From the NCBI RefSeq assembly GCF_009914755.1, contig NC_060938.1: a DNA stretch of 64,000 nucleotides, one strand, 5' to 3'. Below the pieces are notes generated by a model. It had not been told where the DNA came from and did no database searches. It saw only the letters and a list, made by a program, of their open reading frames with translations. Each line of letters starts with the position of its first letter. The first letter of the stretch is position 1. The translations under genes and the position numbers were made by a program. Below are positions 1 to 55,069 of the stretch, piece after piece. This DNA comes from the human T2T-CHM13v2.0 reference genome, Homo sapiens.

Positions 1-595
1 GCAGATGGGAAAGAGTACCTGATAGTGACTATGAACAGGGTGGCTGGGCCATGGGGAAGTTAGACTCAAAGTTTAGTATCACTGGATTTGGTAGAAAAAA
101 GTGGGGATTGTAGGGGAAGGACTTAATGACTACATTATGTGTCTATGAGATTTAGGACTACATTTTCCTTATTTGATTCAATGACCTCTGCTCCCATCTT
201 TTGGTCAAGGGATAAATATTACCAGGATGTGTGTGTGTGTGTTTCCAAAAAATTGGATGGAAGTCTTGAAGAAAAGAGAGGGGAAGCAGAGAGACCTGAG
301 AGAAATAAGCCTGTTACTCAAGATAAATTATTCTTTCCATTACCTACCTCCGTCTCTCCCTTCCAAACATCTACTATCCTTCCATACACACCATTTGTAA
401 TCTGATTACAGGTGCCTGCCACCCCACCTGACTAATTTTTGTATTTTTAGTAGAGACAGGGTTTCACCATGTTGGCCAGGCTTATCTCGAACTCCTGCAT
501 TCAAATGATTTCTCCACATTGGCCTCCCAAAGTGCTGGGGTTACAGGTGTGAGACACTGCACCTGGCCTCATCAGATTCTTGAAACAAACCTAGG

Positions 596-992
596 GGTCG
601 GGTGCAGTGTCTCACGCCTGTAATCCCAGCACTCTGAGAGGCCGAGGTGGGTGGATCATGAGGTCAGGAGTTGGAGACCAGCCTGACCAACATGGTGAAA
701 CCCCGTCTCTACTAAAAATACAAAAATTAGCCAGGTGTGGTGGCGCGAGCCTGTAATCCCAGCTACTCAGGAGGCTGAGGCAATAAGAATGAAACTCCAT
801 CACAAAAAAAACCTAAATAATAATAATAATCGATGCTGTTATTATCCAAATGAACAAAACCACTAAACTAGAATCGCTTGAACCCAAGAGGCAGAGGTTG
901 TGGTGAGCCGAGATCATGCCATTCCACTCCAGTCTGGGCAACAAGAGTGAACTCTGTCTCAAAAAAAAAACAAAAAACAAACAAAACAAAAA
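596..992 (+). mobile_element. AluS-type element interrupted in its right arm by an 88-bp foreign patch (783-870)
   Basis: Alu sequence runs to GAGGCTGAGGCA (782) and resumes at GAATCGCTTGAACCC (871); A-rich tail at 961-992. Confidence 0.9.
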
Positions 993-1444
993 CCGGTAGG
1001 CTGGGCACAGTTGCTCACACTTATAATCCTAGCACTTTGGGAGGCTGAGGTGGGAGGATTGCGTGAGGCCTGGAATTCAAGACGAGGCTGGGCAAAATAG
1101 CAAGACCCCGTCTCTACAAAAAATACCTACTGGGCATCCACTCTATGCCAGCTGGGCATGATGCTTGTGAATATAACTTCATATCCTTTCCACTCTCCAA
1201 GAATTTATATTGAAAGTCCACTTGACAAATAGAACTCATATGACATACATTTTCATTTTTAGTGGAAAAACCATCGAACTTGGGTTCTAGTCAAATTCTT
1301 TCTATTCCCAGTTAAATCCCCTTGGGGCCAGGCATGGTGGCTCATGCCTGTAATCCTAGCACTTTGAGAGGCCAAGGCAGGAGGACTGCTTGAACTCATA
1401 GTATGAGACCAGCCTGAGCAACATAGTGAGACCTCATCTCTACT

Positions 1445-1486
<42 letters not shown>

Positions 1487-1546: not shown

Positions 1547-1943
<397 letters not shown>

Positions 1944-2097
1944 TCAATCTGCATTGATGGAATTAGACCCAATGATTTTCTTACCCAGCTTTAACAGTTT
2001 GTGCTTGCATATGTGAACATCTGTATCAATCAACAAGATGCATCTATTGCAACAATTTCTACATAGGGTCCTACAATAATAAATCTATGATGGTAAT

Positions 2098-2099
2098 TT

Positions 2100-2159
<60 letters not shown>

Positions 2160-2178
2160 TCCTTTCTTTCTTTCTTTC

Positions 2179-2229
<51 letters not shown>

Positions 2230-2281
2230 CTCTCTCTCTCTCTTCCTTTCTTTCTTTTTCTGTCTTCTTTTTTTTTTTTTT
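2098..2281. repeat. Compound (CTTT)n/(CT)n/(T)n microsatellite grown from the tail of a minus-strand AluJ-like element (2282-2555)
   Basis: About 125 bp of near-pure CTTT, then CT and T runs directly abutting an Alu 3' end. Source of the KERK and FLSF ORFs. Confidence 0.95.
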
Positions 2282-3431
2282 GACACAGTCTCACTCTGTT
2301 GCCCAGGCTGGAATGCAGTGGTACAATCTCTGCCTCCGGGGCTCAAGTGATCCTCCCACCTTAGCCTCTCAACTTCAGCCTCCTGAGTAGCTGGGACCAC
2401 AGGTGCATGCCACTATGCCCAGCTAATTTTTGTATTTTTTGTAGGGACAGGGTTTTGCCATATTGGCCAGGCTGGTCTTGCACTCCTGGACTTAAGTGGT
2501 CTGCCCACCTCAGCCTCCCAAAGTGTGATTACAGGTGTGAGCCACCTCACATGGCCCCTGATGGTCATTTCTAAACCATTACTTAAGACGAGGTCTAGAG
2601 TCAAAGTCGAAAAATTTCTGAGGAAGGAATGCCCAAGAGACTGCTTTTGCTCTGGTATTAGAACAAGTTCTTGTCATTTATTTGGCGAATATTGGAGGAA
2701 GTAGTTGGCCTGCATTTATTTATGCGGTAGGTAGAATAAAACTATGCACTTCTCAATATAGGATCACACTCATGCTTATATAGAGAGGGACAGGAGGACA
2801 GAGAGACTCAACCTGGGCTAACTGCATGGAATGCCAGAGTGAGATTCCGTTGCATTCTTTACATTGCTGTTGGGGAATCCTAATTATAGTTTAATTTGCA
2901 TATTCAAATTTAACTTGTATTAAATTAAATTAAAATATGAAAGTCCATCAACAAACCTCAGGTCTGCTAACCTCTGTGACCTCCAGAAGTAAGTCCAATC
3001 AAAAACCAAAGCAGCTTAGACATTCATGATTCTGTATCTCCAGATGGCAGAATCACCTCAGGATTTAGCCCAGGCCATAGAAATCCTTTCCTTCTTTTGG
3101 GACATAAGCTCCAAGGTAGATCTTCTAATTTGTTACATTTTCAACAAACATTTGGCAAATGCATTTGAGATTTCACTTACCAGGCCTGCATTTAGGGGGA
3201 AAGTAGAGTGAACGAGTAGACATTTCTCAACATAGAATCACATTCATGCTCATATTAAGAGAGAGATGAGAGAACTGGGATGCTGGGGTTACAAAGGCAA
3301 ATAAGACACAGGCCCTGCTTCTCCCTGGGAGGAGGGGCAATTTCGAAAAGATAAAGACGATACAACATGAGAAACTGTCGTAAAGGTATACATAAAGTTC
3401 CCTGGGAAGAAGGGAGACTTGAATAATACTA

Positions 3432-3698
<267 letters not shown>

Positions 3699-3806
3699 TC
3701 AGGAGGCTGAGGTGGGAGAATTCCTTGATCCCAAGAGGTTGAGGCTGCAGTGAGCTATGATCAGGCCACTGCATTTCAGCCTGGGAGATAGAGCAAGACT
3801 CTGTCT

Positions 3807-3840
<34 letters not shown>

Positions 3841-4183
3841 AGAAGAAGAAAAGAAAAAAGAGTAGAAATGTATAGGGAAAGAAAATTTGAAAAGAAGTTT
3901 GGGGTGAGTGTAAAAGACCATTTATGCTATATTAACAAATTGAATATTATGAGAAGACACTGGAAGTTTTAAAACAAAGAATATAGCTGTATTTTATTAT
4001 TATTTTAATAATTTTATTTATTTATTTATTTTTTGAGACCATGTCTCACTCCATCACCCAGGCTGGAGTGCAGTGGCACAATCTTGGCTCACTGCAACCT
4101 CTGCCTCCTGGGTTCACGTGATTCTCCTGCCTCAGCCTCCTGAGTAGCTGGGATTACAGGTGCCTGCCACCATGCCTGGCTAA

Positions 4184-4330
<147 letters not shown>

Positions 4331-4431
4331 TAGAAGGTCAACCATTGAAAGTGTGGAAAATGATTTAAAATTGGAAAGAGACTGAATGGACAGAAGAGAT
4401 ACCAGAAATCCAGGCAAGAGATGAAGAGTGA

Positions 4432-4820
<389 letters not shown>

Positions 4821-5226
4821 TAAAATAGAGACAGGGTCTCACTATGTTGCCCAGGCTGGCCTTGAACGCCTGGGCTCGAGTGATCCTTCCACCTCAGTCT
4901 CCCAAAGCATTAGGATTACAGGGATTACAGGTGCTCCCCATCATGCCCAGCTAATCCAGGCTGGTCTTGAACTCCTGACCTCAGGTAATCCACCTGCCTT
5001 GGCCTCCCAAAGTGCTGGGATTACACGCATGAGCCACTGCACCCGGCCACCAAGTTCACAACATTTGATAGTTAATATTATTACACTGTTCTGCATAGAG
5101 AACAAGAGGTGAGTGCTATAAGCAATGCAGATCAACTGCATACAAGTTCAGAGGAAGGAAAGGCCATTTCCAATTGGAGGGCAGGAGGGTGAGCAGATTA
5201 AATTAGAATAATGAAGAAGTCACTTA

Positions 5227-17450: not shown

Positions 17451-18087
<637 letters not shown>

Positions 18088-18127
18088 CCAGAAATAGTAA
18101 TTTTTAAAAAATTGCTTTTTAAGAAAA

Positions 18128-19049
<922 letters not shown>

Positions 19050-19393: not shown

Positions 19394-20335
19394 TCAAACC
19401 TCACTCGGAGTTCTTGGGCTTCTGAGCATTCTTTTCAGGGCCAGCTTCACCTCTTGGTTCCGCAGAGTGTAGATAAGGGGGTTGAGGAAAGGAGTGATGG
19501 CCGTGGGGACTAGGGCAGCTGCCCCATCCAGGGGGCTGTTGGTTTCAGGCCTCAGGTAGATGAAGGCACAGGGCACATAGTACACGGTGACCACGGTTAC
19601 ATGGGCTCCACAAGTTGAAAACGCCCGGCGCCGCCCATCAGCTGTGTGGATTCTCAGGATGGCCTGAATGATCTGTATGTAGGAGAGGAGGATCAGGGAG
19701 AAGCAACTGGCAACCACCACCCCAATGTCTACAAACGTCACCAGCTCGTTGACTGTTGTGTCAGCACAGGCCAGTCTCAACACTGCAGGGATGTCACAGA
19801 AGAAGTAATCCACCTGATTGGGCCCACAGTAGGGCAGGCGGAAGGTTAGGATGGCCTGGAGAGCCCCATGGATGGATCCTGCCATCCAGGCTCCAGCCAC
19901 AAGCAAGGCACTCAGCTTAGCAGTCATGAGCACAGGGTAGCGCAGGGGCTGACATATTGCCAGGTACCTGTCATAGGCCATTAGGGTGTAGAGGAAGCAC
20001 TGGGTGCTGCCCAGGAAGTGATAGAAATAGAGTTGAGCAACACAGCCACCAAATGGGATGGGTTTGACACCTAAAGTGAAGTTCATCATGAGGCGAGGGA
20101 CAATGATGGAGGAGATGCCCATATCAATGACTGAGAGAACACCAAGAAAGATGTACATGGGGCGGGCATGGAGCCTTGGGTCTGCCCAGACAGTGATTAA
20201 AATAAGCAGGTTTCCCAGCTGAGTCAGGATGTAGATTAGAAAAAAGAACACAAAAAAGAGTGTCCTTAGCCTGAGTGGATACGGAATTCCTGTCAGGATA
20301 AACGCAGTCAACAGTGTGCTGTTGATTCTTTCCAT
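19394..20335 (-). CDS. OR10G3: Olfactory receptor 10G3, class II OR, 313 aa, single coding exon
   Basis: Intact 7TM ORF with N-glycosylation site NST, GN, LHARPMYIFL, MAYDRYLAIC, FFCD, SY, RAFSTC and PFLNPLIYTLRN; termini MERINSTLL and RSPRTPSEV recognised as OR10G3. Confidence 0.97.
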   Translation of the reverse strand: MERINSTLLTAFILTGIPYPLRLRTLFFVFFFLIYILTQLGNLLILITVWADPRLHARPMYIFLGVLSVIDMGISSIIVPRLMMNFTLGVKPIPFGGCVAQLYFYHFLGSTQCFLYTLMAYDRYLAICQPLRYPVLMTAKLSALLVAGAWMAGSIHGALQAILTFRLPYCGPNQVDYFFCDIPAVLRLACADTTVNELVTFVDIGVVVASCFSLILLSYIQIIQAILRIHTADGRRRAFSTCGAHVTVVTVYYVPCAFIYLRPETNSPLDGAAALVPTAITPFLNPLIYTLRNQEVKLALKRMLRSPRTPSEV

Positions 20336-21935: not shown

Positions 21936-23530
<1,595 letters not shown>

Positions 23531-42345: not shown

Positions 42346-42425
42346 ATCGAGTATCACATTGATCAAGTACCACATTGATCGAGTATCACATTGATCAAGT
42401 ACCACATTGATCAAGTATCACATTG
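42346..42425. repeat. Five tandem 16-bp units ATC(A/G)AGTA(C/T)CACATTG
   Basis: Units start at 42346, 42362, 42378, 42394 and 42410; variant order A-B-A-B-hybrid. Confidence 0.95.
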
Positions 42426-43490
42426 GTCAGAAAAGAAGTCAATAATAAGAGAAATCTTGAAAAATACACAAACACATGGAAATTAAACAATAAGCTCCTG
42501 AACGACCAGTGGGTCAGTGAAAAAATTAAGAAGTTAAAAAATTTCTTGAAACGAATGAAAATAGAAATACAGAATCCCCAAATCTATGGGATACAGGACA
42601 AGAAGAACTAAGAGGGAAGTTTGCAGCAATAAATGCCTTTATCAAAAAGGTAGAATGTCTTCAAATACGCTGGGGGTGGTGACTCTTGCCTGTAATCCTA
42701 GCACTTTGGGAGGCCAAGGCAGGAGTATTACTTGAGGTCAGGAGTTCAATACCAGCCTGGGCAACATAGCGAGACCCCATCTCTACAAAAAATAAAGAAT
42801 ATTGTCTGGGCATAATGGCATGCACTTGTAGTCTTAGCTACCCAAGAGGCTGAGGTGATAGGATGGCTTGAGCCCACAAGATCAAGGCTGCAGTGAGCTG
42901 TGATTGTGCCACTGCACTCTAGCATGGGTGACAGAGTGAGACCCTGTTTCAAAAAAGAAAAGAAAACAAGATTTCAAATAAACAACCTAATGATGCACCT
43001 CAAGGAACTAGAAAAGCAAGAATAACCAAAACCTAAAATTAATATAGGAAGAAAAAATATAAAAGCAGAATTAAATGGGATTGAGATGAAGAAAACAAGG
43101 CTAGGTATGGTGGCTTATGCTTATAATCCCAGTGCTAGGAGGCTGAGGTGGGAGGATTCTGTGAGGCCAGAATTTGAAACCACCCTCCACAACATAATTA
43201 GACTCCTGTCTCTACAAAAAATAAAATAAAAATATTAGCCAGGCATGGGGCAATGCACCTGTAATTCTAGCTACTTGGGAAACTGACACAGGAGGATCCC
43301 TTGAGCCCAGGAGTTTGAAGTTACAGTGGGCTGTGATTGTGCCACTGTACTCCAACCTGGGTGACAAAGTAAAACCCTGTCTCTAAAAAGAAAAAAATCC
43401 GGGCGCGGTGGCTCACACCCGTAATCCCAGCACTTTGGGAAGCAGAGGCAGGCGGATCATGAGGTCGGGAGATCGAGACCATCCAGGCTA

Positions 43491-46254: not shown

Positions 46255-48215
46255 TGAACTTCTGACCTCAGGTGATCCGACTGCCTTGGCCTTCCAGAGT
46301 GCTGGGATTACAGGGGTGAGCCACTGCACCAGGCCAAGAATTAATACTTTTAAAAATGTCAATATTACCCAAAGCAATGTACAGATATCATACAATATCT
46401 ATCAAAATATCAATGACATTCTTCACAGAAATAGAAAAACAACTCTAAAATTAATATGGAACCACAAAAGACCCTGAATAGCCAAAGTAATCCTGAGGAA
46501 ACAGAGCAAAGGTGGAGGTATCACACTACCAGACTTCAAAGCATACTACAAAGCTATAATAACCAAATCATAGTGTTGGCATAAAAACAGACATATAGAT
46601 CAGTGGAACATAATAAGGAACTCAGATATCAATCCAAGCATACAGCCAAGTCACTTTCAACAAAGGCACCAAGAACATATGATGGGAAAAGGATAGTCCT
46701 TTAATAAATGGTGCTGGGAAAACTAGATAACCAAATGCAGGAGAATGAAGCTGGATCACTATCTCTCACCACGTACAAAAATCAAATAAAAATGGACAAA
46801 AGACTTAAATGTAAGATCTGAAACTATGAAACTCCTACAAGAAGTTATTGAGTGATGCTCCAGGACATTGATCTGGACAAAGACTTTTTGTGTAGGACTT
46901 CAATAATACAGGCAACCAGAGCAAAAATGCACAAATGGGATGGTAGCAGTTGAAAAGCTTCTGGATAGCAAAGGGAACAATAAACAAAGTGAAGAGACAA
47001 TTCACAGAATGGGAGAAAATATTTGCAATCTATCCATCTGAAAACGGGTAAATAATCAGAATACATAGGGAGCTCAAACAACTCAATAACAAAAAACCCC
47101 ATATAATCCAATTAAAAAGTGGGCAAAAGATCTGAATGGATATTTTCCAAAAGAAGACACACAAATGGCCAATAGTTATATAAAAAATGTGCAACAACTT
47201 TAATCTTCAGAAAAATGCAAACCAAAACTACAACGAAATATCATCTCACCCTAGTTACAATGCTTTTATCAAAAAGACAGGGAGTAATGAATATTGGCAA
47301 GAATGTGGAGAGAGGGAAACCCTTGTACATTGTTAGTGAGAAGGTAAATTGGTAGAAGCATTATGGAAAACTGCATGGAGGTTCCTCAAAAAACTAAAAA
47401 AAGAATTCTCATATGATCCAGCAGTTCCACTAATTGGATATATACCCAAAAGAAAGGAAATCAATATATTGAAGTAATATCTACACTCCCATGTTTGTTG
47501 TAGCACTATTTATAATAGCCAAAATATGGAATCAACCTAAGTGCTCATCAATAGATGAATGGGTAATGAAAATGTGGCATATATACACAACAACATAATA
47601 TTCAGCCTCCCCTCCGCCCCCCACACAAATCCTGTCATTTGCAGCATGGATGGAACTGGAGGCCATTATGTTAAGTGAAATAAGCCAAGCACAGAAAGAC
47701 AAATATTGCATGTTCTCACTCATATGTGGGAGCTGAAAAAGTGGATCCCATAAATATAGGGAGTGGATTGGTGGAAGGCAAGAAGTAGGTGGGGATGAAG
47801 AGAGGTTGATTAATGGGTACAAATATACTATTTGGTAGACAAAGTAACACCTAATGTTTGATAGATTAGTAGTGTGACTATAGTTTATCATAAACTATTG
47901 TATATTTCAAAGTCACTATAAAATAATAATTCAAATGTTTCTGGCATAAAGAAAATACAAACATTTAAGTTGATGGACATCTCAATTACACTGATTTGAT
48001 ATTTACAAATTATGTGAATGTATTAAACTACCACATGAACCCTGAAAAAAAATATATCTATTATGTATTGGTGAAAAATATTGGCTTTGAGAAAAAATAA
48101 ATTACTGTAGACTCAGAAGTTGTCTTAAGTGGCTTCTCTTATAGGAGAAGATATAGATATATCTTGTAATCTCACCGTAACAGTTTTTTCTCATAAATAA
48201 TTTTTTTTCTTTTAA

Positions 48216-48838: not shown

Positions 48839-49545
48839 CTGAGTCTTTGACTTGATCTATTATTTAAAATTAGGCCAACATGATCTCTCACATACAGATG
48901 AATAAAAAACTGTTGGCAAATGAAATAACACATTTACCTTGTCCTTCATTTTTCTGGAAGGAGCGATTGACCCTGCTCTTATATTGTTCCATACTTGAGT
49001 CTTCTGAAATGTTTTCTTTTTCCTCCAGGTAAGACCAGGATAGGTCACAGAGGAAAACACAAGGGTTATTTACATCCGCCTGGCCTGGTCAGAAGACATT
49101 GCATGATTTACTCAGTGACCTACTGAATGACTGACCAGCTGGCTTCTAGATCTTTGTCTACTTGGCTTGTGATAACTAACCAAAAGTTTTTCTGGATGCT
49201 TTGGACAATTTAGATGCAGTTCAAAAGACTTTCCTGGTGCTGTTTTTGTTTGTTTGTTTGTTCATATTCTAGAGATGGGATCTTGCTTGGTTGCCTAGGC
49301 TGGTCCTGAATTCCTGGCCTCAAGCTCTCCTCCCAGCCTCAAGTAGTTGGGATTACAGACATGAGCCACCGTGCTCAGCCCTGGTGCTGTTTTAATTTAA
49401 AAAATTGTTGATTGGGTAAAGTATTAGGATGAGGTAACAAAGTAACTCGACAATAAATCAGTGGATTAAAAACTGCTCTAACAAAGTAACCCAACAATAA
49501 ATCACTGGATTAAAGAAGCTAAAGTTTTATTTCCCTCTAACTTAA

Positions 49546-50064
<519 letters not shown>

Positions 50065-50519
50065 TGACTAGATCTGGCTGCAACAGACACTGAGAAATAT
50101 CCACAGAAGAGCAGCCACATTCTAGCTACAGCCTTCTAACTAGGGAAGGAGAGAATGGATTTTTGTGGACACCCAGCCATCTCCTCTATAAGTGGATACT
50201 AGTAGATATTGGGGAAAAGGAGGCTACAACATAAACATCAATAAAACATACTTTCCTGGCCGAGCACGGTGGCTCACACCTGTAATCCCAGCGCTTTGAG
50301 ATGCAAAGTGATAAACAGAGCAAGACTCCATCTCAAAGAAAAAAAAAATGCTTTCCTTTCTCTAGAAACTCCAATCTAAGCTATAATATAGTCCAGCCAA
50401 AGAAAAGTACTATTATAAAATTTGAAGGCCCACTGGAATACAAGGAGGAGGATATAACTTATGAGTGGAAGAATAAGAAAACTTCTTGTAGGAATAAAGA
50501 TTTTTCTTGGACCTCAAAG

Positions 50520-51020
50520 TTAGCATAAAACATCAGTTTACCAATATGGAGGAGGAAGGCTATTTCAGATATGAGAATAACTCAAGCAAAGGCTCAGAGG
50601 CGGGGAAGTATAATGTTTAAGGAATGACAGGTAAATTAATGGGGCCGGAAGAGAAAAGGGAGGTAGAGATATGTTGGGAGATGAGGTATGTTGGTACCAG
50701 ATTGTGGGGAACTTTGAATTCCAAGCTAATAGGTATGGGCTTTATTTATATGCAGTGGAAAGCCAGTAAATATTTATAGGGACAGGAAATAAAATATTTA
50801 GTTGTATGTTTCAGAAAGAAAACTCCGGTAGTTGTATGGAGGAAAGTGGAGGTGACAAGGAGACCACTTAAGAAGCCAGAGAGACATTTCTGAGGCAGGG
50901 TGAACAGGATTTGATGAATTACTACATGGAGAAAAGTGAGGGGCTGAAAGGAAACACAGATGAGCCACACAGAGATTCTAACTAAGTACCTGGAAGGATG
51001 GATTTGCCTTGATGTGAGCA
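50520..51020. mobile_element. L2 remnant
   Basis: Purine-rich degenerate L2 blocks (GCAAAGGCTCAGAGG, ATGCAGTGGAAAGCCAGTAAA, AGAAAGAAAACTCCGGTAGTTGTATGGAGG). Confidence 0.6.
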
Positions 51021-51371
51021 AAGCAATTCTGATGCCTAGAGGCTTGGGAAGTTAGGAGCAAAGCAAATGAATGTAGGACAGTATTATGTTGGCTTTCCCC
51101 AAATTTGCTTGGAATAATTTCCCCTCCTTCTAGAAGAAAACATCAATTTCTCAGAGTCAACATATGTGCTTTCTCTTGAGAGCTGGGTCAGAAAAGGGTA
51201 AAACAGCTATGGATAACTTCTTGAGGTTGAATATAGCACCAGAAGCCTCTTTCTAGTAGAATTATGTTCATTTCCGCTGAAACTAACATCTATTTATTGA
51301 ACATTTGTCACGTGCAGCAGTAGCTGAAGAGAGTGGTAGCGATGGTTATGTGGCTGTAGTTACTTATTTTC

Positions 51372-51456
51372 CCACCCAAGTAATAACCAGGCCCGACCCT
51401 GCTTAGGTTCTGAGATCAGACGAGATCGGGCGTGTTCAGGGTGGTATGGCCGTAGA
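51372..51456 (-). pseudogene. 5S rRNA retropseudogene, 3'-truncated and tailless (about nt 2-87 of 5S)
   Basis: Minus strand TCTACGGCCATACCACCCTGAACACGCCCGATCTCGTCTGATCTCAGAACCTAAGCAGGGTCGGGCCTGGTTATTACTTGGGTGG; TSD TAGTTACTTATTTTC at 51357-51371 and 51457-51471. Confidence 0.95.
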
Positions 51457-51469
51457 TAGTTACTTATTT

Positions 51470-52413
51470 TCATTCAGTCCCTTGACCTGCTGTTATCCTC
51501 TTCAGGGCAGACTTCACTTCCTGGTTCCTCAGTGTATAGATGAGGGGGTTCAGTAATGGAGTGACAACAGTGTAAAACACAGCTGCTGCCCCATCCAGGG
51601 GGCCTTTGGAGCCAGCCCTAAGGTAGATGAAAATACAGGGGACATAGTAGACTGTGACCACGATTAGGTGGGAGCCACAGGTGGAGAAGGCCCGGCGCCT
51701 CCCATCAGTGGTGCGTATCTTCAGGATGGCATTTACTATGTTGGCATACGAGAGCAGAATTAACATGAAGCAACTGGCGGCCACTACCCCGATGTCCACA
51801 AAGGTCACAAGCTCATTGACAGTTGTGTCAGCACAGGCCAGTCTCAATACTGCGGGGATGTCACAGATAAAGTAATCTACCTGATTGGGCCCACAGTAGG
51901 GCAGGCGGAAGGTCAGGGTGGCCTGGATAGACCCATGCATGGAGCCAGCGACCCAAGCTCCAGCCACAAGGACTGTGCATAACCTCCCATTCATGAGCAC
52001 TGGGTAGCGCAGGGGCTGACATATTGCCAGGTACTGTCATAGGCCATCAAGGTGTAGAGGAAGCACTGGGTGCTGCCCAGGAAGTGAAAGAAATACAGTT
52101 GAGCCACACAGCCACCAAACGGGATAGCCTTGTTGGCAGGAGTGAAGTTTAAAATAATTCAAGGAACGATGACTGAGGAGAGCCACATGTCCAGGAATGA
52201 GAGCACTCCCAGAAGAATGTACATGGGGCGAGCACGGAGCTTCGGGTCAGCCCACACGGTGAGCAGAATGAGCAGGTTCCCCAGCTGAGTGAGGATGTAA
52301 ATGACGAAGAAGACCAGGAAGAGGAGGCTTCTTAGATTCGGGGGGTGAGACAAACCCAGAAGAATGAAATCTCTCACCACGGTGTCCAGCGATGTGTTTT
52401 TGGTCTTTCCCAT
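51470..52413 (-). pseudogene. OR10G1P: Olfactory receptor family 10G unprocessed pseudogene, close to OR10G2
   Basis: Full-length OR homology from MGKTKNTSLD to KRITAGQTE-like end (ITAGQGTE*); premature TGA at 52161-52159 (IVP*; the paralogue has Arg) and a 1-bp deletion in the Arg codon of MAYDRY near 52034 (GGTACTGTC vs OR10G3 GGTACCTGTC). Confidence 0.93.
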
Positions 52414-53431
52414 GTCTTTTTGCAGTCTGCTAAGATGAATGGTGAAGTCTGATAAGGAAAATGCAGGTGTGGAGTGATAACAGAATGCTTTTGTCTAATG
52501 ATCAGAATTTGAGAGGTAAACAGAAGTCTTCTATATTTTAAATAGAAAGCATTTGCCATCAGTCACCTGGGTTTGCTTGGCAAAACAACCTTCAGAGCTG
52601 TTTAGTCTCTAGGTGCCCTGAAATGCCTCTTTAATAGGGGATACGACATACAGGTATTAGAAACCAAGCACAGGATTGTGTCTGAATAATAGTGTAAGTG
52701 CATATGATAGGTCTACGCCCCCAAAGGGGACCACAGAGAAATAGATTTTGGTGATATGAAGCAGTGTGGAACTATTACCCCACAATTATCATTCCTATTG
52801 TTGGTTTATGACTTAATATCCTTGAAATGTCTCCTCCTGAGATCTACAAGAAACTTTGTGATCTGGTTCTTGCATATTTCAATAATCTTTGTTTTAGTTC
52901 TCTCAGATCACCATACCCTCCTTCCTCTGGACTTAGGAGTATGCTGATTGATCTAATATGTCTTCATTCCTCTGTCACCTCCTTGGAAAGAATTATCCTC
53001 CACTAGAAGACAATTTTCTGGGAAATAAGAACTTATATTAAAGGGTGATTACAGTACATTATTATAAGAGCTATTTGCTTAAGTACTTACCGTTTCCTTC
53101 TACTAGATTTTAAGATCCTTCAGAGCAAAGAGCACTCTATTTTGTTCTTTGATGTATTTGCAGCAACTACTCTGGTGCTTGGCAATAATAAGTTAATAAA
53201 TATTTGTTGGTTGACTGGCTAAGTGGATAGTGTCAACTCCTACTAATCCTGTATCATGTTTCCCTCCATGATCACATCTCTCATGCTTTTTCCATATAGT
53301 CAAGACTGTAGGACAGGGCCTGCACTTCAAGCAATGTGAGCCTATGCTCAGTGTAAACAAAGTCTAAGGTACCATTTGTACCTTCTGTTTGCTCTGGAAT
53401 GTTATTTACATTTATTAATTGACCTAAGTAG

Positions 53432-53780
<349 letters not shown>

Positions 53781-54334
53781 ACAGCATTGATTATTATAGG
53801 ATTTGTCTTTTAGTACATTGTTATTTTAATAGTTTTTGTTTGTCTTCCAACAAAAAGGATTTCAAAAAGCCTTCAAAGGTATTAAACATCTAAGCCAGAT
53901 GTTATTTAAAAACTCCCTTTGGCTGGGCGCAGTGGCTCACACCTGTAATCCCAGCACTGTTGGAGGCTGAGGCAGGCGAATCACTTGAGGCCAGGAGTTC
54001 AAGACCAGCCCTGGCCAACATGGCAAAACCTTGTCTCTATTAAAAATACAAAAATTAGTCCGGTATGGTGGTGCATGTCTGTAATCCCAGCTACTCAGGA
54101 GGCTGAAGCACGAGAATCGAGACTCACCTGAGCCTGAAAGGTGGAGGTTGCAGTGAGCCAAGATCAGGCCACTGCACTCCAGCCTGGGCCACAGAGAGAG
54201 ACTAGGTCTTGAAACAAAACAAAACAGAAAAACTGTCTTTGATAAATGGTTTGTTCAAAAAAGAATGTTTTAGGTATTTTTACCCATTGCTTAAACTAAA
54301 ATATCTTACAGTTCTTTTTTGTTGTTGTTTGTTG

Positions 54335-54603
54335 TTTTTTTAAAATAAATTTTATTATATATATTCAAAGTATGCAACATGGTGTTATGAAATATATAGA
54401 TAGTAAAATGATTACTACAGTGAAGTAAGTTAACATATTCATCATCTCACGTAGTTACCCATTTTATTGGGTGGCAAGAGCAGCTAAAATTTAGTCATTT
54501 AGCAAAAAATCCTAAATATACAATATTATTAACTATAGTCCTCATGTTGTACATTAGAGCTTTAGACTTGTTCATTCTGTGTACTTGCTACTTTGTGTCC
54601 TTT
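54335..54603 (-). mobile_element. L1MA 3' end fragment
   Basis: AAAATGATTACTACAGTGAAGTAAGTTAACATATTCATCATCTCACGTAGTTACC...ATTATTAACTATAGTCCTCATGTTGTACATTAG. Confidence 0.75.
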
Positions 54604-55069
54604 AAGAAACAAAAATTAAACTAGTAAGAAATTAATTATACAAAGATCTGAGCATTAACAGTTATAACCACAGGGATGCCATTAGAAAAATTCCCTTTTA
54701 TAAATGTCAGACTCAAACATATTTTATCTTCATTATTATTTAAAAGGAATTAAGTGCATATAATTATTAATAATACTGCATTTGTACTAATTATTAATAA
54801 TAATGCATTTATACTAATTATACAGTCCATAGAAATAAGTACAGACTTTGTCCACAAATCTCTTTATTAGAGTATATTAGATTTTTATTACCTTATTTTC
54901 AGAAGGAAGGATAATTTCTTTTGGGATGGGTGGATGGTACTTTCTTTGTCTAGAATGGAAAGAAATGGCAAAGTTTGAGCACTTGTATATGATACTAATT
55001 ATGAGCAAAATTTATATTCTACCAGTGAGAGGAGATACATACTAGAGGAGATATATACTATAAATGTGA

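What the first reader, a model, noticed from the sequence alone, without database searches (positions are those of the whole stretch)
783..870. Templated patch inside an Alu, copied in inverted orientation from an Alu tail and its unique flank 52.6 kb away
Seen: the Alu at 596-960 breaks after GAGGCTGAGGCA and contains an Alu 3' end, an (AAT)n tail and 40 bp of non-Alu DNA (831-870). Those 40 bp match the reverse complement of 53429-53468 at 37/40, which is the TSD end and 3' flank of the Alu upstream of OR10G1P, and that Alu also has an (AAT)n tail. The left junction shares GGCA with the Alu 3' end; I see no TSD or terminal poly-A. Inference: break repair by a microhomology template switch, either to DNA in the same chromatin neighbourhood or to a Pol III read-through transcript of that Alu (no TTTT terminator on its strand across the copied flank). 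The donor could instead be a duplicate of this segment outside the window.
Basis: partly seen in the sequence, partly recalled or inferred. Interest (0 to 1): 0.8.

Follow-up and report, generated by a model that had tools for sequence, protein, structure and literature searches.

The report
Old repair patch inside an Alu
An 88-base piece copied long ago from the end of another Alu repeat and its unique neighbouring DNA 52.6 kb away sits inside an Alu repeat, most likely as the scar of an ancient break repair; it is a clean example of a known kind of event.

Summary
Window 783-870 (88 nt) interrupts an otherwise continuous Alu. Only 3 consensus bases are missing at the break. There is no target-site duplication and no terminal poly-A.

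The non-Alu 40-mer 831-870 matches the reverse complement of 53429-53468 at 37/40. Chance expectation is 0.00. In the whole T2T-CHM13 assembly these are the only two places with 3 or fewer mismatches.

The patch carries the donor Alu's 3' end, A-run, its 17-nt target-site duplication and 31 nt of flank. It was therefore copied from the Alu-filled donor site. Identity is about 88%, so the event is old and not an assembly chimera.

- **Junctions:** the left one has 4 nt of microhomology (GGCA) within a 9/11 imperfect match; the right one has at most 1 nt.
- **OR10G2 flank:** it is far too diverged to be the donor.

Best reading: one-off repair of a break or stalled fork, primed by microhomology on donor DNA in cis (0.6). 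A reverse-transcribed read-through Alu RNA is the main rival (0.2), weakened by the cis proximity (about 3.4e-5 by chance).

This is a new member of a known kind: class-2 templated insertion, or non-classical Alu insertion. Interest is low to moderate.

The parts
596..782 (+). Host Alu, 5' part, ending in ...GCTGAGGCA
   Evidence: sequence; 90 in-window hits; alignment to 45 in-window copies. SRP-like match at 597-711, 46 bits, below gathering.
779..782 (+). GGCA, the 4-nt microhomology shared by the host Alu and the donor Alu 3' end (donor 53522-53519). It lies in an imperfect 9-of-11 match with one 1-nt gap.
   Evidence: junction contexts printed side by side; alignment.
783..803 (+). Copied Alu 3' end, 21 nt
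   Evidence: It matches many in-window Alu ends at up to 92.6% over 27 nt. Over the 25 alignment columns that include the shared GGC bases, the donor ranks only 7th of 45 (19/25). This part alone does not identify the donor.
804..830 (+). A8, then CCT, then AAAT(AAT)4
   Evidence: The donor has A6-T-AAAT(AAT)n. CCT equals the 3 bases before the donor's 5' duplication copy (53800-53798).
823..839 (+). Copy of the donor Alu's 17-nt target-site duplication, 16/17
   Evidence: query 41-57 against 53797-53781 at 94.1%..
840..870 (+). Copy of 31 nt of unique donor flank beyond the duplication, 29/31
871..998 (+). Host Alu 3' part and A-rich tail. It resumes 3 consensus bases after the break.
583..595 (+). 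Probable, imperfect target-site duplication of the host Alu. Its partner is at about 984-1000. It brackets both halves of the host.
   Evidence: read by eye (AAACAAACC-TAGG against AAACAAAAACCGGTAGG); not tested statistically.
53429..53518 (-). Donor segment: Alu 3' end, A/AAT run, 3' duplication copy and 31 nt of flank
53477..53780 (-). Donor Alu, full length, with body and tail
   Evidence: start at 53780; 32/282 differences from the in-window consensus.
53781..53797 (-). 5' copy of the donor Alu's target-site duplication. The 3' copy is at 53460-53476.

Best explanation
A single ancient germline event. The host Alu broke, or a fork stalled in it, between ...GAGGCA and GAATCGC....

- The 3' end of the left side (...CTGAGGCA) annealed by 4 nt of microhomology, within a 9/11 imperfect match, to the similar motif ...CTG-GGCA near the 3' end of another Alu. 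That Alu lay in cis, in opposite chromosomal orientation.
- A DNA polymerase copied about 88 nt of donor DNA: Alu end, A/AAT run, target-site duplication and 31 nt of flank.
- The new strand was released and joined to the other side of the break with at most 1 nt of homology. The host lost 3 nt.

This is synthesis-dependent end joining, or an MMBIR/FoSTeS-type double template switch.

Shown: the anatomy, the direction of copying (donor to patch), the uniqueness of the pair and the age. Inferred: that the template was DNA, which enzyme acted, and what caused the break. No function is implied.
For: - The host is continuous apart from 3 nt, with no duplication or poly-A around the patch. This is an insertion at a break, not a retrotransposition.
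- The patch holds the donor's duplication plus Alu end. A global alignment scores 118 against the filled site and 76 against an Alu-free model. The copy was therefore made from the donor after its Alu had inserted.
- The left junction has GGCA microhomology inside a 9/11 match. That meets the 'microhomeology' definition of at least 5 bp, at least 70% identity and a gap of at most 2 nt (PMC6902434, passages read).
- The donor is on the same chromosome, 52,559 bp away. It is the only other copy in 3.117 Gb.
- If the donor were drawn at random from the genome, as for RNA-derived patches, lying within this distance has probability about 2 x 52.6 kb / 3.117 Gb = 3.4e-5 (my arithmetic). Experimental RNA-derived patches mapped to 18 of 24 chromosomes with no regional preference (PMC5110952, text read).
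- In a self-comparison of the window, this is the only short inverted duplication among the 7 low-copy pairs. The others are 3 segmental-duplication blocks, 2 local tandems and 1 artefact.
Against: - Nothing in the sequence itself tells a DNA template from an RNA template.
- The copied strand has the sense of the donor Alu's own transcript. No TTTT occurs for 844 nt past the copied end, so a read-through RNA would contain the whole patch.
- The right junction (at most 1 nt) is a poor priming or return site for a polymerase switch. It fits simple end joining as well.
- A test for error-prone synthesis downstream of the patch was not significant. The host 3' part has 15/91 differences against 16/189 in the 5' part: rank 5 of 46 Alus, Fisher p = 0.065.
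Even so, about 10^4 such patches genome-wide would be needed to expect one chance cis case.
- The TSI screens were built on inter-chromosomal junctions. Their lack of cis donors is partly by design (PMC5110952).
Confidence: 0.6

Rival explanations
1. RNA-templated patch. A read-through transcript of the donor Alu (Pol III), or intronic OR pre-mRNA of the same sense, was reverse-transcribed at the break by L1 ORF2p without endonuclease cleavage. Synthesis was primed from the right-hand end. The cDNA end then annealed to the left end through GGCA. This would be an endonuclease-independent or non-classical Alu insertion, or a class-2 templated sequence insertion.
For: - The patch has the sense of the donor Alu, and the first TTTT lies 844 nt past the copied end.
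- No duplication or poly-A, a microdeletion and microhomology match the published features of NCAI and class-2 TSIs (PMC5402677 passages; PMC5110952 text).
- Over half of NCAI carry 2 bp to 2 kb of non-Alu sequence (PMC5402677).
Against: - The donor lies in cis at 52.6 kb, about 3.4e-5 by chance. RNA-derived patches showed no chromosomal preference (PMC5110952).
- NCAI are typically 3'-truncated, whereas this fragment keeps its 3' end and A-run and is 5'-truncated.
- Priming at the right junction would have had at most 1 nt of complementarity.
Confidence: 0.2
2. Two steps. First, ordinary Alu-Alu gene conversion (SDSA) in the homologous register copied the donor's whole right arm, tail and flank into the break. 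Later, about 95 bp between the two GGCA motifs was deleted.
For: Host and donor are homeologous Alus, each about 11% from the in-window consensus. The GGCA-containing motifs form an internal quasi-repeat.
Against: It needs two independent events to give what one microhomology-primed event gives. No remnant of the donor's right arm is left in the patch.
Confidence: 0.07
3. Capture by end joining of a free double-stranded DNA fragment of about 90 bp released from the donor region of a sister chromatid or homologue.
For: Both junctions are compatible with end joining. Capture of DNA fragments at breaks is described (PMC5110952, introduction).
Against: Nothing explains why such a fragment should come from 52.6 kb away rather than from anywhere. 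The donor is intact.
Confidence: 0.06
4. Born with the patch. During the host Alu's own retrotransposition, the reverse transcriptase jumped from the Alu RNA to a donor read-through RNA and back.
For: A probable duplication brackets the whole host Alu, so one insertion event made both halves.
Against: The return jump would have had to land 3 nt from the exit point. The cis proximity of the donor to the integration site is again unexplained.
Confidence: 0.04
5. Assembly chimera or chance similarity.
For: None found.
Against: The patch is 88% identical to the donor, not 100%. Chance expectation is 0.00. The reversed-pattern control is 0/0 genome-wide.
Confidence: 0.01

Closest known systems
Class-2 templated sequence insertions (TSI/TSIP; Onozawa and Aplan, PMC5110952)
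   Same: A patch copied from elsewhere with the donor left intact. No duplication, no poly-A, a microdeletion and microhomology at the junctions. Size is in the same range: experimental TSIs were 73-414 bp.
   Different: Those are attributed to reverse-transcribed RNA from distant loci, often other chromosomes. Here the donor is 52.6 kb away in cis, and the event is ancient and fixed in this assembly rather than polymorphic (polymorphism not tested).
Non-classical (endonuclease-independent) Alu insertions, NCAI (features as summarised in PMC5402677)
   Same: An Alu fragment without duplication, with a small target deletion, accompanied by non-Alu sequence, at a site with no L1 endonuclease motif.
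   Different: NCAI are typically 3'-truncated and lack the tail. This fragment is 5'-truncated and keeps its 3' end, A-run and downstream flank, which lets the source element be named.
MMBIR/FoSTeS template switches and synthesis-dependent MMEJ (PMC6902434, passages read; PMC2943611, search listing only)
   Same: Priming on 2-9 nt of microhomology set in imperfect 'microhomeology'. A short templated insertion from a nearby locus. Inverted orientation is allowed.
   Different: Those are usually seen at the breakpoints of larger copy-number changes, or use templates within tens of bases. Here the 88-nt copy is the whole event, and the second junction is nearly blunt.
L1/SVA-type 3' transduction by target-primed reverse transcription (recalled, not looked up)
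   Same: The flank downstream of a retroelement travels with the element's 3' end.
   Different: No duplication, no terminal poly-A and a 3-nt target deletion. This is not classical retrotransposition.

Membership tests
Class-2 templated sequence insertion | Insert templated from another locus, with the donor intact | tested here: met
Class-2 templated sequence insertion | No recipient duplication of 5 bp or more, no poly-A tract at the insert end | tested here: met
   and junction contexts.
Class-2 templated sequence insertion | End-joining marks: microdeletion, microhomology | tested here: met
   3 consensus bases are missing. GGCA is shared.
Class-2 templated sequence insertion | Donor in a distant region, derived from RNA | tested here: inconclusive
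   The donor is 52,559 bp away on the same chromosome. An RNA origin cannot be tested from the sequence.
Non-classical Alu insertion (ENi) | Alu fragment lacking duplication, with a target deletion of 1 bp to 7 kb | tested here: met
Non-classical Alu insertion (ENi) | 3' truncation, no A-tail | tested here: not met
   The fragment keeps its 3' end and A8 and runs on into the flank.
Non-classical Alu insertion (ENi) | No L1 endonuclease site (TTTT/A) at the insertion point | tested here: met
   The break lies in ...GAGGCA/GGA/GAATCGC...; neither strand has a T-run. Read by eye.
Non-classical Alu insertion (ENi) | Reverse transcription of Alu RNA by L1 ORF2p | not testable with these tools
   It is only shown that a read-through RNA would contain the patch.
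Classical TPRT insertion with 3' transduction | Target-site duplication and terminal poly-A | tested here: not met
MMBIR/FoSTeS or SD-MMEJ templated insertion | Microhomology (2-9 nt) or microhomeology (at least 5 bp, at least 70%) at the priming junction | tested here: met
   GGCA lies within a 9/11 match. The definition is from PMC6902434.
MMBIR/FoSTeS or SD-MMEJ templated insertion | Template close by in cis | tested here: met
   52.6 kb away on the same chromosome; the only other copy genome-wide.
MMBIR/FoSTeS or SD-MMEJ templated insertion | Excess point changes near the junctions (error-prone synthesis) | tested here: inconclusive
   Host 3' part 15/91 against 5' part 16/189, rank 5 of 46, p = 0.065. 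Polarisable changes are 6 in the patch and 3 in the donor (read by eye).

The most novel reading that the evidence does not exclude
The broken end of one Alu used an Alu-internal quasi-repeat (...CTG(A)GGCA, present both mid-element and near the 3' end) to prime on another Alu in the same chromatin neighbourhood, and then ran off into that Alu's unique flank. If this is a recurrent route, Alus act as landing pads for template-switching polymerases. They would move snippets of unique DNA between Alus in cis. Such patches would then be datable fossils of ancient three-dimensional contacts.
Probability: 0.12. Interest if true: 0.55.

Novelty: new member of a known kind. Interest (0 to 1): 0.27.

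Why it matters
On its own this is a neutral scar in intergenic DNA between SALL2 and OR10G3. Its value is as a clean specimen.

- The patch carries the donor Alu's target-site duplication and unique flank. Source, direction and uniqueness can therefore all be established, which is rarely possible for Alu-derived filler.
- The cis location of the donor bears on a question the TSI papers left open: RNA-derived patches versus DNA template switching.
- One case settles nothing. A census of such patches and their donor distances could.

Tried and rejected
- **Empty-site model.** The left part of the patch loosely resembles the donor's 5' flank, so I tested whether the patch copies the Alu-free donor site. 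It scores 76 against 118 for the filled site, and is rejected.
- **Error-prone synthesis.** A first count gave 19/90 differences in the host 3' part against 14/187 in the 5' part, rank 1 of 46. Seven of those mismatches were a 1-nt alignment shift. After realignment the counts are 15/91 against 16/189, rank 5 of 46, p = 0.065. Dropped.
- **Donor-specific markers in the Alu part.** The donor ranks 7th of 45 (19/25). The shared 1-nt insertion occurs in 10 of 45 in-window Alus and the shared G-to-A in 12 of 45. These are not diagnostic. The link to the donor rests on the tail, duplication and flank.
- **Fragile inverted repeat as cause of the break.** An antisense Alu (400-568) lies head-to-head with the host, with a 27-bp spacer and 83.75% identity over 160 nt. 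Head-to-head pairs with 24-36 bp spacers are over-represented in the human genome, not depleted (PMC3215922, passages read). No special fragility can be claimed.
- **Inverted copy of the host.** The antisense Alu is no closer to the host than to other Alus.
- **Inversion with staggered breaks.** Rejected from the layout: the two host halves have the same orientation and directly flank the patch.
- **A third copy at 17945-18147.** This is an Alu inserted into another Alu with spurious flank similarity.
- **OR10G2 flank as donor.** A collinear but weak paralogue exists: local score 43 against a shuffle mean of 19.7, sd 2.7, maximum 29. Only 29 of the 40 donor positions align, with about 13 extra bases in gaps (counted by eye). 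Rejected.
- **Not available.** No primate orthologues, population data, raw reads or Hi-C data were at hand.

Full report
**What is there**

- Its left part has 90 in-window BLAST hits, its right part 35 and the donor Alu 155.
- It gives sub-threshold SRP matches.
- A probable imperfect target-site duplication brackets it, at 583-595 and about 984-1000 (by eye).

The element stops after ...GCTGAGGCA at 782 and resumes with GAATCGC at 871. Aligned with 45 other in-window copies, exactly 3 consensus columns are missing at the break.

The 88 nt in between are laid out as follows:
- 783-803: an Alu 3' end.
- 804-811: A8.
- 812-814: CCT.
- 815-830: AAAT(AAT)4.
- 831-870: 40 nt that are not Alu.

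**Is the match real and unique?**

- The 40-mer matches the reverse complement of 53429-53468 with 3 mismatches. 100 dinucleotide-preserving shuffles of the window gave none.
- The 55-mer 816-870 matches at 52/55. The whole patch aligns over 82 columns at 87.8%, with 8 mismatches and 2 gaps.
- In the whole 3.117-Gb assembly, a search allowing 3 mismatches finds only these two places. The reversed-pattern control finds 0.
- BLAST-type searches agree, using the 88-mer, a 60-mer and 271 nt of donor flank. The three extra hits of the 88-mer cover only its Alu end and A/AAT run.
- The 40-mer is therefore not a dispersed repeat, and there is no hidden third copy in this assembly. The tool warns that counts are lower bounds for repeats; that does not apply to this unique word.
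- The 12% divergence excludes a recent assembly chimera.

**Direction of copying**

The Alu at 53780 to about 53490 (minus strand) is full length. It is flanked by a perfect 17-nt duplication at 53797-53781 and 53476-53460.

The patch contains, in order:
- an Alu end,
- the A-run,
- a 16/17 copy of that duplication (823-839),
- 31 nt of the flank beyond it.

That order exists only at the donor after its Alu inserted. A global alignment scores 118 against the filled site and 76 against an Alu-free model. The donor's AAT run is partly target-site sequence, since the 5' copy of the duplication also contains it. It is not simply an Alu tail.

The 25 Alu-end alignment columns alone do not single out the donor, which ranks 7th of 45 at 19/25.

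**Junctions**

- On the left, host ...AGGCTGAGGCA and donor ...AGCCTG-GGCA share GGCA, within 9 of 11 aligned positions.
- On the right, the patch ends ...AAACTA and the host resumes GAATCGC. The donor continues CTTAGG, so at most 1 nt is shared.
- No host bases are duplicated and the patch has no terminal A-run.
- Classical target-primed retrotransposition, including a 3'-transduction version, is therefore excluded.

**Age**

- Patch and donor differ at 8 of 82 columns plus 2 gaps, about 5% per lineage.
- Host and donor Alus differ from the in-window majority consensus by 31/280 and 32/282, about 11%.
- The event is thus roughly half as old as the two Alus, with wide Poisson error.
- With recalled ages of 30-40 Myr for elements of this divergence, that means tens of millions of years. 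No primate genomes were available to test this.
- Sites that can be polarised give 6 changes on the patch and 3 on the donor, which is not asymmetric. They were polarised using the donor's other duplication copy, the in-window consensus and the weak OR10G2-side paralogue (by eye).

**Mechanism**

The near-perfect continuity of the host points to an insertion at a break, or a double template switch at a stalled fork, in an Alu that already existed.

Two templates fit the anatomy.

1. DNA. The left 3' end primes on the donor's antisense strand through GGCA and its surrounding imperfect match, copies 88 nt, and the product is joined almost bluntly on the right.
2. RNA. A read-through transcript of the donor Alu would contain the patch, because there is no TTTT for 844 nt beyond the copied end. 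It is reverse-transcribed from the right-hand end, and the cDNA anneals on the left through GGCA.

The one discriminating fact is location. The donor is 52,559 bp away on the same chromosome. For a donor drawn at random from the genome, that has probability about 3.4e-5 (my arithmetic).

RNA-derived patches at induced breaks mapped to 18 of 24 chromosomes without regional preference (PMC5110952, parts 1-2 of 4 read). That paper's screens of genomes were built on inter-chromosomal junctions, so cis cases were partly excluded by design.

Even so, about 10^4 such patches would be needed genome-wide to expect one chance cis case.

I therefore put DNA-templated repair in cis at 0.6 and the RNA route at 0.2. 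Smaller shares go to three others:
- a two-step conversion followed by a deletion,
- capture of a free fragment,
- template switching at the birth of the host Alu, which would need a return jump landing 3 nt from the exit.

An inversion with staggered breaks is excluded by the layout.

**What did not hold up**

- An apparent excess of changes in the host's 3' part fell to rank 5 of 46 and p = 0.065 once a 1-nt alignment shift was corrected.
- An antisense Alu lies head-to-head with the host, 27 bp away and 83.75% identical. Head-to-head pairs with spacers of 24-36 bp are over-represented in the human genome (PMC3215922, passages read). It cannot be called a fragile site.
- A suspected third copy at 17945-18147 is an Alu within an Alu.
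- The OR10G2-side paralogue of the donor flank is collinear and appears to lack the donor Alu. It is only weakly alike: score 43 against a shuffle maximum of 29, with 29 of 40 donor positions aligned and about 13 gap bases. It is not the source.

**Comparison with what is known**

The patch fits the description of class-2 templated sequence insertions in every junction feature. It does not fit their distant, RNA-derived donors.

It meets most features listed for non-classical Alu insertions (PMC5402677, passages read). The exception is 3' truncation, which was tested and not met.

Its left junction meets the published definition of microhomeology used for replicative template switching (PMC6902434, passages read).

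I file it as a new member of a known kind: an ancient templated patch. It has the unusual merit that the source element can be named.

I found no paper describing this locus, but I ran no search aimed at it. My five completed searches were on mechanisms.

**Verdict**

Novelty is modest and interest is 0.27.

Noticed in passing
window 812-814 and 53798-53800: The patch has CCT between its A-run and the AAT run. The same three bases directly precede the 5' copy of the donor Alu's duplication. The donor's duplication may originally have been 20 nt, with the patch preserving a state that the donor's 3' copy later lost to AAT-repeat turnover. It could also be chance.
   Followed up: partly
window 400-568 (-) and 596-782 (+): A head-to-head inverted Alu pair with a 27-bp spacer and 83.75% identity over 160 nt. 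The pair gives sub-threshold matches to hairpin miRNA models such as mir-1972 at 542-622 (49 bits against a gathering score of 90).
   Followed up: partly
window 50508-54933 against L012 (G000:C14:15829000-15838900) 1608-5140: Collinear paralogy between the OR10G1P and OR10G2 regions. The gene block 51457-52824 is 85.3% identical and the flanks only 58-65%. The OR10G2 side aligns across the donor Alu's insertion point as if Alu-free.
   Followed up: partly
window 19428-20233 / 51495-52299; 22523-22685 / 46682-46843; 22766-22881 / 47627-47740: Direct-orientation paralogous blocks between the OR10G3 and OR10G1P regions, at 79-81% identity, with differing offsets that imply later insertions.
   Followed up: no
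window 17945-18147: An Alu inserted into the A-rich linker of another Alu. It mimicked a third copy of the donor's 5' flank in BLAST.
   Followed up: yes
window 42346-42429 and 49435-49514: Two short local tandem duplications: 52 nt at 96% with an offset of 32, and 36 nt at 92% with an offset of 44.
   Followed up: no
window 1446-1484: An uninterrupted A-run of about 38 nt ends the Alu that starts near 1327. It is followed directly by the start of another Alu.
   Followed up: no
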